The notes under the pieces: model-generated | Told to the model about the DNA's origin: nothing | Database searches by the model: none | What the model saw: the letters and a program-made list of their open reading frames with translations, nothing else | Made by a program: the position numbers and the translations under genes | Source: Chara braunii | Lineage: Eukaryota > Plantae > Charophyceae | Direction: 5' to 3' | Assembly (NCBI GenBank): GCA_003427395.1 | Contig: BFEA01000001.1 | Coordinates: 1,694,280-1,758,279, forward strand | Length of the DNA: 64,000 bases | Shown here: positions 27,451-28,713 of the stretch, one piece after another | Position numbering within the stretch: position 1 is the stretch's first letter | Layout: the number at the start of each line of letters is the position of its first letter

Positions 27451-28713
27451 GCATCGGTTGGAAATGCACATTGTGGTATGAGGTTGCGGGTTCAAAACTT
27501 CGCAGCCTTGCGTATGGACACGACATGGTGTTCAAAACTCCCCTGGGCTGATGCAGGTAAGTTATTACAGACATTGCTTGCGCACCACCCATGGGCAAGT
27601 CCATGGTTATTATATGTTGGTTTTGGGTTATGGGATGTTTGCCTAATGCTTTTGGTTCTAGTGGTTCTTTGCAGGCTTGCATTCTTGAGGATGATTGTTT
27701 ATTTTCCTTCCAGTCCGATATTGTGTACAAATCGTTCAGTTTTCACAGTAGCTCAGTAGGTTCAATAGAAGATTGCATGGATGAGGTCGTGTGCTCAAAA
27801 ACTCGCTTACCTAGTTGGAGGCAGGACCAAGAGACCTACGCACCGCCCATAGACTCAGGAACGGTTGATGAGAGTGAGACTTAGCACAAACTGTGGTTGG
27901 TTTTGGTAGGTTTCTTGGGGCAAGATTAAAGTAGAGGGACTTGTTACTAGTTGGAGATCTGGGGGGGTCAGCCACTAGGCACGGGAGGGGTTAGGGTGAG
28001 GGTTCCCCTTAGGACAACTCGCCCGTGGAACGGGAACGGTTGATGAAAGTGAGACTTAGTACAATCCACGGTCGATGTCTGTTTGGACGAGGACCCTACA
28101 GACCACCCATGGAACGAGGAACAGTTGATGAGAGTGAGACTTAGTACAGTCTATGGCTGGTGTTGGTAGGGCTCTTGTGTCGGTGGGGCTCTCCACAGGA
28201 TTGGTTGGGTTGCATGCCTCCTATGTTCGATTCACTATCAACAAACATATAGTAATGGCAATAGTGTGCACAGTGAACAACCTAACAACAAACAACAGTA
28301 ATAACAGTTGTGTACACAACGATAGGAACGCAAAATAGGTCCACCTATGAGACTTATAGTGAAACGTTTGTACCTAGCACCTGAAGTACCTGGGCGACAA
28401 GGTTCGCACAAATATGCTTCGACCAGAGCTGAATGGGATGTGAAGGACTCAGCTTAGCCCTGGTACCTACAACCACGGTTCGGTCAAGTCACCCCCAAGG
28501 CTGGAGGGTGACAATCTTGATTGGTAGACACTGAGATAGGATAGTGGGAGTAGGAGTGCGCCGGGAGAAATTACGAAAGAGGTAGGTTGGAAAGGAGCCC
28601 TATAGGATTAAGGGGGCTTTACCACATGGCCGAGTGTCGAAGGTGACTCTCATATGTTTGTAATTCAGCCTCTACAACAACCAGGACTTTAAATTTAAAA
28701 AGAAAAAAAAAAA
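27451..28713 (+). mobile_element. Poly(A)-tailed insertion within the LINE RT region
   Basis: The host frame ...EAVVK|HLVEIYNE is split here. The insert ends in an A-run at ~28697-28713. Confidence 0.7.
27828..28180 (+). ncRNA. Three long hairpins with conserved apical motif GGAACRGTTGATGARAGTGAGACTTAGYACA (candidate structured RNA)
   Basis: Inner stems 27847-52/27891-96, 28023-29/28065-71 and 28107-13/28150-56, plus different outer stems. Confidence 0.55.

What the first reader, a model, noticed from the sequence alone, without database searches (positions are those of the whole stretch)
27828..28180. Triplicated structured-RNA motif in a retro-insert: possible new ribozyme or protein-binding RNA
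Three long hairpins have largely different stems (CAAGAGACCTAC/GTAGGTTTCTTG; CCGTGGA/TCCACGG; CCCTAC/GTAGGG plus CCATGGA/TCTATGG) with G-U pairs on the + strand. Each presents the same ~31-nt cap GGAACRGTTGATGARAGTGAGACTTAGYACA. The cap resembles a minimal hammerhead core (CUGAUGA..GAAAC..GUH) with U3 and G14 changes, and also contains box C (UGAUGA), but fits neither family canonically.
Basis: partly seen in the sequence, partly recalled or inferred. Interest (0 to 1): 0.7.

Follow-up and report, generated by a model that had tools for sequence, protein, structure and literature searches.

The report
Long SINE with triplicated loop-E hairpins
The three look-alike hairpins are internal duplicates inside one decayed copy of an abundant, unusually long jumping repeat with a tRNA-type promoter; each is predicted to fold a ribosomal-type "bulged-G" module that likely docks a host protein, and they do not fit the hammerhead ribozyme.

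Summary
The triple cap is real: 3 exact matches, 0 expected. The stems are not largely different: hairpins 1 and 3 are an 83-nt duplication, 81% identical, and hairpin 2 is a shortened third copy. They lie in the body of a 1.27-kb A-tailed insert (27441-28712) that has Pol III A/B boxes at its 5' end, interrupts a LINE ORF2 and is highly repeated in the genome. It works like a long tRNA-headed SINE. The hammerhead reading fails on C3, A14, helix II and helix I. There is no box D and no Rfam hit. Other genomic copies run intact across the would-be cleavage sites. The cap fits better as an irregular hairpin extension with a sarcin-ricin/loop E module (GAA/AGUA; 2 of 3 copies), a 4-bp helix and a GNRA-type tip. 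It is likely a protein-docking site, but no binding was tested. Evidence for selection on the cap is weak (p 0.02-0.12). No homologues were found outside this genome. Verdict: a SINE variant with a structured body, probably not a ribozyme.

The parts
27441..28712 (+). Whole SINE-like insert, about 1.27 kb, slightly 5'-truncated, A-tailed
   Evidence: Summed contig depth in run X1 jumps from 52-168 in the flanks to 2,095-106,630 inside and falls to 31-198 after 28705; loose ends pile at 27440/27441; the LINE frame resumes across it
27441..27521 (+). tRNA-type head: A-box-like at 27441, B-box-like at 27489; shared with a more abundant repeat family
   Evidence: Only A+B box pair in the window; depth 60,853-106,630 and loose ends at 27481/27521; no ARAGORN or Rfam tRNA call
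27759..27807 (+). Second, degenerate copy of the head's box region
   Evidence: Local alignment score 31 against shuffled mean 20.6, sd 2.5; 0 of 300 shuffles reach it
27578..27648 (+). Possible fourth hairpin with similar arms but no cap (tentative)
   Evidence: Duplex with hairpins 1 and 3 stronger than 200 of 200 shuffles, but chosen after the fact; no significant sequence alignment; 1 of 65 flank windows also reaches z -3; cap-only z is -0.8 to -1.6
27828..27917 (+). Hairpin 1; cap 27858-27888 (AGCA in place of AGUA)
28020..28076 (+). Hairpin 2 (short form); cap 28033-28063
28090..28177 (+). Hairpin 3; cap 28118-28148; 81% identical to hairpin 1 over 83 nt
28685..28712 (+). A-rich / poly(A) tail
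   Evidence: sequence
27211..27440 (+). Host LINE ORF2, part before the insert (decayed)
   Evidence: ORF listing; contigs of run X1 join this part to 28750-28805 and skip the insert (table 5)
28713..29472 (+). Host LINE ORF2, reverse-transcriptase part after the insert (decayed)
   Evidence: Pfam RVT_1, E 1.2e-06 and 1.2e-14

Best explanation
The three hairpins are internal duplicates in the body of an abundant, 1.27-kb, A-tailed repeat with tRNA-type promoter boxes that is likely a Pol III SINE copied by a LINE enzyme, and each cap is predicted to fold a bulged-G (sarcin-ricin/loop E) module that likely serves as a host-protein docking site rather than a cutting site. Steps. (1) Shown: head, body and tail layout, many related copies, insertion into a LINE. 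(2) Inferred: Pol III reads through the whole body from the A/B boxes, and an L1-type ORF2p reverse-transcribes the RNA from its A tail. (3) Shown: the unit was duplicated within the element. (4) Predicted fold of the cap: closing G-C pair, GAA opposite AGUA, C.U, then R-U, G-C, U-A, U.G, tandem G.A pairs or a bulge, and a GARA (GNRA-type) tip. (5) Inferred, untested: three such modules give multivalent binding of a host RNA-binding protein that stabilises or localises the long Pol III RNA and raises its chance of meeting ORF2p.
For: Repeat family and boundaries: 2415 contigs of run X1 laid, sharp depth steps at both ends, empty-site joints. A/B boxes at the very start. Four of the five TTTT runs of this copy carry a non-T letter in 98-99.7% of family depth (4 of 17 T rows fall in runs, P 0.015; 4.1 runs expected by shuffling), as expected for a Pol III transcript. 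Structure: 97.3% of 74 cells paired over 28 pairs and 5 pairs changed on both sides, against 33-48% when slid. Both R positions of the cap are neutral in this model (R-U pair; GNRA position 3). The inner 4-bp helix has pair probabilities 0.61-0.72 in hairpin 2 and 0.41-0.48 in hairpin 3. AGUA/GAA is the sarcin-ricin sequence and a flanking C.U belongs to its classical definition (PMC1865062 passages). The strict module is expected 0.017 times per window. A plant tRNA-SINE with three bulged stem-loops binds a host dsRNA-binding protein (PMC2408557 passages).
Against: Only three paralogues: covariation is not significant against the shuffle control (55/500 for double changes, 23/500 for the score). 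The cap's extra conservation (2/31 against 14/52, p 0.024) drops to p 0.12 after removing sites where the family letter matches hairpin 3, and to p 0.08 after also removing CpG-type changes. Hairpin 1 has AGCA, which is in neither the 4 nor the 22 derived motif sequences, and its model pairs have probability 0.03 or less. The whole insert folds only slightly better than 12 shuffles (-408 against -395, sd 7). RNA reads are sparse and on both strands, so no discrete Pol III RNA is shown. Length exceeds the SINEBase range; identity to a tRNA was not shown; no target-site duplication was seen. No protein partner was tested.
Confidence: 0.57

Rival explanations
1. Same SINE-like element, but the cap has no specific role: it is shared only because the unit was duplicated fairly recently, and the hairpins are generic stabilising structure.
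For: 81% identity of hairpins 1 and 3; cap conservation not significant after correction (p 0.08-0.12); AGCA in copy 1; hairpins 2 and 3 fold no better than shuffles; SINEs with internal duplications are a known class (PMC3531059 passages).
Against: Stem differences among the copies mostly keep pairing (72 of 74 cells, 5 double changes); all cap differences but one fit the model fold; the strict module is rare by chance.
Confidence: 0.28
2. The hairpin is a self-cleaving ribozyme of an undescribed class, active only conditionally, that releases sub-fragments of the SINE RNA.
For: A well-kept irregular cap with no Rfam match; ribozymes are common in retroelements (PMC4209133).
Against: Cleavage 400-700 nt behind the promoter would separate head from tail; PMC5786205 notes that an internal ribozyme truncates a SINE. 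Contigs of other copies span 27811-28100 and 28068-28450 intact, there is no depth step at the caps, and no RNA-end pile-up in 2 of 2 RNA runs, at low depth.
Confidence: 0.07
3. A variant minimal type I hammerhead that cleaves as a dimer or trimer, as in Penelope-like elements.
For: The order UUGAUGA...GAGAC...GUA resembles the core; three tandem copies; minimal hammerheads cleave weakly as multimers.
Against: U3 without the compensating A8, G14, no helix II or G10.1-C11.1 pair, a 1-bp helix I, C16.1 in copy 1, a non-palindromic loop 3; no Rfam hammerhead hit at E up to 10; the host is not Penelope-like; a loose match is expected 0.58 times per window.
Confidence: 0.04
4. Captured box C/D snoRNA or k-turn motifs that bind Snu13/L7Ae.
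For: UGAUGA is present in all three caps.
Against: No CUGA within 120 nt downstream in 3 of 3 copies; no Rfam snoRNA hit; I found no register, by inspection, with a 3-nt bulge beside tandem G.A pairs and a proper canonical stem.
Confidence: 0.04

Closest known systems
tRNA-derived SINEs with internal duplications (SINEBase definitions, PMC3531059; passages read)
   Same: tRNA-type head, body of unknown origin, simple-repeat tail, many dispersed copies, internal duplication
   Different: About 1.24 kb without tail, against 75-662 nt for 175 families and the <1 kb definition; second degenerate box region; tRNA identity not demonstrated
Brassica SB1 SINE RNA (PMC2408557; passages read)
   Same: Plant tRNA-SINE whose RNA forms three bulged stem-loops and binds a host protein (HYL1)
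   Different: The passages read do not describe SB1's stem-loops as copies of one unit with a shared cap; HYL1 binding is described as structure-based; here a defined GAA/AGUA module recurs
Sarcin-ricin / loop E (bulged-G) motif of rRNA (PMC1865062; passages read)
   Same: AGUA opposite GAA, flanked by a C.U pair on one side and a G-C pair on the other, in copies 2 and 3
   Different: The GAA strand comes first, the reverse of the ribosomal sarcin-ricin hairpin (order recalled); the tip lies on the C.U side; copy 1 has AGCA; the fold is predicted only
Minimal type I hammerheads of Penelope-like elements (PMC4209133; parts 1-2 of 4 read)
   Same: Superficial order of core-like words; several copies within a retroelement
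   Different: Four core or helix features are missing; located mid-body of a SINE-like element, not in terminal repeats

Membership tests
Hammerhead ribozyme (incl. minimal PLE type) | C3-G8 pair, or the U3-A8 covariant | tested here: not met
   U3 with G8 in 3 of 3; natural variant is U3-A8
Hammerhead ribozyme (incl. minimal PLE type) | G12-A13-A14 box (A14 conservation recalled) | tested here: not met
   GAG in 3 of 3
Hammerhead ribozyme (incl. minimal PLE type) | Helix II closed by G10.1-C11.1 | tested here: not met
   Only 4 nt (RAGU) between A9 and G12; pair described as highly conserved
Hammerhead ribozyme (incl. minimal PLE type) | Helix I of at least 2 bp next to the core | tested here: not met
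   G2.1-C1.1 only; R opposite A at 2.2/1.2
Hammerhead ribozyme (incl. minimal PLE type) | Self-cleavage | not testable with these tools
   No RNA-end pile-up at low depth; uninformative on its own
Box C/D snoRNA / k-turn | Box D (CUGA) partner of box C | tested here: not met
   0 of 3 within 120 nt; no Rfam hit
tRNA-derived SINE (SINEBase) | Pol III A and B boxes in a 5' head | tested here: met
   27441 and 27489
tRNA-derived SINE (SINEBase) | At least 60% identity to a tRNA over 60 nt | tested here: inconclusive
   No ARAGORN or Rfam tRNA call; head is 5'-truncated; no direct tRNA alignment was made
tRNA-derived SINE (SINEBase) | Interspersed, at least 100 copies | tested here: inconclusive
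   Body depth 2,095-6,298 against 14-20 per single contig suggests hundreds, but the tool warns that summed depth is no copy number; no assembly held
tRNA-derived SINE (SINEBase) | Shorter than 1 kb | tested here: not met
   About 1.27 kb; so filed as SINE-like, a long variant
tRNA-derived SINE (SINEBase) | Simple-repeat tail | tested here: met
   A-rich tail 28685-28712
Sarcin-ricin / loop E motif | AGUA opposite GAA within a helix | tested here: inconclusive
   Sequence and register fit in 2 of 3 copies; AGCA in copy 1 is not among the derived sequences
Sarcin-ricin / loop E motif | S-turn geometry with bulged-G triple | not testable with these tools
   Needs probing or a structure

The most novel reading that the evidence does not exclude
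A tRNA-SINE has evolved a trivalent sarcin-ricin/loop E mimic that captures a ribosome- or 5S-associated host factor, giving it a route to LINE ORF2p analogous to Alu with SRP9/14 (analogy recalled). A similar module beside an rRNA-like fragment at 11135 hints that several retroelements of this genome use rRNA mimicry.
Probability: 0.12. Interest if true: 0.7.

Novelty: new variant of a known kind. Interest (0 to 1): 0.3.

Why it matters
SINE bodies are mostly of unknown origin and function (PMC3531059, PMC5786205 passages). A body with three copies of one defined RNA module gives a direct handle: mutate the module, measure retrotransposition, pull down the protein. If the module proves neutral, this is simply a long, apparently undescribed SINE-like family. 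The ribozyme claim that set the first score is unlikely.

Tried and rejected
Rfam: the whole window at gathering threshold gave only a U6 copy; E up to 10 over 27600-28500, 27380-27840 and 28180-28740 gave only chance-level hits. Pattern scans for homologues: viral 0 and 2; metagenome 0 and 11; prokaryote genomes 5. The 16 loci have flank-closing energies of 0 to -5.6, against -8.4 to -12.7 kcal/mol for the window copies, and no similarity to the insert outside the pattern; the 2 viral loci show no closing stem by inspection. All 18 were rejected as chance. A covariance model from the three copies found no fourth member in the window. No tail homology to any LINE 3' end in the window. No whole genome held. 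No RNA holder listed. Two protein searches meant to place the host and the LINE returned nothing, so the organism is not established; the alga names in paper searches were my guess from recall. Relaxed ARAGORN gave only implausible calls. Cap self-duplexes are weak (-6.3 to -6.8 kcal/mol). An antisense switch between 27575-27670 and the caps was considered: the pairing is with the arms, not the cap. Searches had one pair misplaced; one search is the corrected count. Site-by-site family variation across the hairpins remains unmeasured beyond the 40 of 260 rows shown. Earlier-findings look-ups by sequence and place were empty.

Full report
Observation. The cap pattern matches exactly three times on + (27858, 28033, 28118); 0 of 100 shuffles give as many. 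Each sits on a predicted hairpin, but only hairpin 1 beats its shuffles clearly (z -4.0, against -0.7 and -1.5). The stems are homologous, not different: hairpins 1 and 3 are an ungapped 83-nt repeat with 81% identity (D7), and hairpin 2 aligns to the same inner arms. The observation therefore reduces to one unit present three times.

The insert. Laying contigs of DNA run X1 on 27250-28900 gave 2415 records. Summed depth is 52-168 before 27418, 60,853-106,630 over the first 110 nt of the insert, 2,095-6,298 over the body, 8,699-11,735 near the 3' end and 31-198 after 28705. Single contigs have depth 14-20, so the body is probably present in hundreds of copies; the tool warns that this sum is no copy number. 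Loose ends cluster at 27440/27441. Three listed joints skip the insert from one LINE side to the other. The flanks are a decayed LINE ORF2 (RVT_1) whose frame resumes across the insert, which ends in an A-rich tail; no target-site duplication is visible. The first 60 nt hold the only A-box plus B-box pair of the window, and a second degenerate copy of that region lies at 27759-27807 (0 of 300 shuffles). ARAGORN and Rfam do not call a tRNA. Of the five TTTT runs in this copy, four carry a different letter in 98-99.7% of family depth; the fifth is not among the 40 of 260 rows shown. This modestly supports Pol III read-through. The layout is that of a tRNA-headed SINE, but about twice the longest of 175 families in SINEBase (PMC3531059, passages). 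The host is a eukaryote (U6 copy; LINEs). My impression of a green alga or plant is recall and was not established (empty).

Expression. Two oligo-dT runs, read at about 6% and 12%, gave 103 and 466 reads. Most are 90-95% alike or less, so they come from other copies; they fall on both strands; body depth is 0-14 away from the head and the 28482-28593 stretch. No place has many molecule ends. This shows low-level transcription of family members, not a discrete RNA, and is too shallow to exclude cleavage.

Hammerhead test. In hammerhead numbering the caps have U3 with G8, G14, four nucleotides in place of helix II, one pair of helix I, and C16.1 in copy 1. Minimal Penelope hammerheads keep G10.1-C11.1, usually have a long helix II, and vary at 3/8 as U3-A8 (PMC4209133, parts 1-2 of 4 read; its supplementary alignments were not seen and may hold further variants). 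PMC6155905 (passages) describes 15 conserved core nucleotides within three helices. Rfam finds nothing at E up to 10. A loose core pattern is expected 0.58 times per window. Architecture argues the same way: a ribozyme behind a SINE head truncates it (PMC5786205, passages), and contigs of other copies span 27811-28100 and 28068-28450 unbroken (table 8). Retrozymes are tandem or LTR-bounded (bioRxiv 2026.07.22.740005, abstract only; PMC4918200, search listing only), unlike this element. Box C has no CUGA partner in 3 of 3.

A better fold. The cap's two ends face each other as G-GAA-C and U-AGUA-C. AGUA/GAA is the sarcin-ricin sequence, and the classical definition adds a flanking C.U pair (PMC1865062, passages). 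Above it lie R-U, G-C, U-A and U.G pairs, then possible tandem G.A pairs and a GARA tip. Both purine-variable positions are neutral in this model. On the three-copy alignment, 97.3% of 74 cells pair and 5 of 28 pairs change on both sides, against 33-48% when slid; against the shuffle control the values are not significant (55/500 and 23/500), and some double changes could come from CpG decay. The inner helix has probability 0.61-0.72 in hairpin 2, 0.41-0.48 in hairpin 3 and 0.03 in hairpin 1; the energy model does not score the non-canonical module. Copy 1 has AGCA, outside the paper's derived sets. The strict module is expected 0.017 times per window; besides copies 2 and 3 it occurs once more, at 11135, where the covariance model gives only E 3.9. 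The cap is better kept than the rest of the duplicated unit (2/31 against 14/52, p 0.024), but p rises to 0.12 and 0.08 after corrections. Selection on the cap is suggested, not shown.

Mechanism. Shown: element layout, multicopy status, internal triplication. Inferred: Pol III transcription and mobilisation by an L1-type enzyme through the A tail; no LINE tail homology was found in the window. Predicted: the bulged-G fold. Untested: protein binding. The nearest precedent is SB1 SINE RNA, three bulged stem-loops that bind HYL1 (PMC2408557, passages). I put 0.57 on a functional docking module, 0.28 on neutral duplication, 0.11 on any ribozyme and 0.04 on a k-turn.

Distribution and novelty. Five pattern scans found no true homologue in viral, metagenome or prokaryote collections (18 loci, all rejected). 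These collections hold little eukaryotic DNA, so this says little about related species. Paper searches (listings only, apart from the papers named above) showed no description of this family or of a loop E module in a SINE body; Repbase and Dfam could not be searched. Two earlier AI notes on other genomes reached similar 'ordinary SINE hairpins' verdicts; they are not independent support.

Verdict. A real triplicated structured motif in a long SINE-like retroposon; not a hammerhead or snoRNA; probably a protein-binding or merely structural module. New variant of a known kind, interest 0.3.

Noticed in passing
window 11135-11273 (+): A second strict GAA/AGUA module (11135-11165; 0.017 expected per window) lies just upstream of a stretch that aligns to eukaryotic LSU rRNA model positions 859-946 (Rfam E 2). 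Possibly an rRNA-derived or rRNA-mimicking piece inside another repeat; an alternative pairing is favoured by the energy model.
   Followed up: partly
window 6621-6720 (-): Decayed U6 snRNA copy (61 bits) near segments repeated within 4121-7706; may be a U6 pseudogene or a U6 piece carried by a mobile element.
   Followed up: no
window 22785-22864 and 25446-25525: An 80-nt direct repeat (93%) brackets a second, A-tailed LINE fragment (22932-25445). Both this tail and the SINE's tail run into the same CATCT word (D3 and D5): possible target-site preference or an unusually long duplication.
   Followed up: no
window 27441-27521: The head is shared with a far more abundant and more expressed repeat family that diverges after 27521 and has a tandem-like repeat of the head (loose ends in 4 of 4 runs).
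   Followed up: no
window 28502-28562: A 60-nt segment is shared with another expressed sequence (loose ends on both sides in run X6, on the 5' side in X7) and lies in a well-folding stretch (z -3.0 for 28460-28579): possible swapped module or LINE-derived tail part.
   Followed up: no
window 30092-30610: Long inverted repeat (arms of 151 and 75 nt, 80-85% complementary) inside the host LINE's ORF2 (I1 and I2).
   Followed up: no
window 32402-32632: Two related 37-55-nt hairpin-forming repeats just upstream of an apparent host exon starting near 32813; the exon's product found no homologue.
   Followed up: partly
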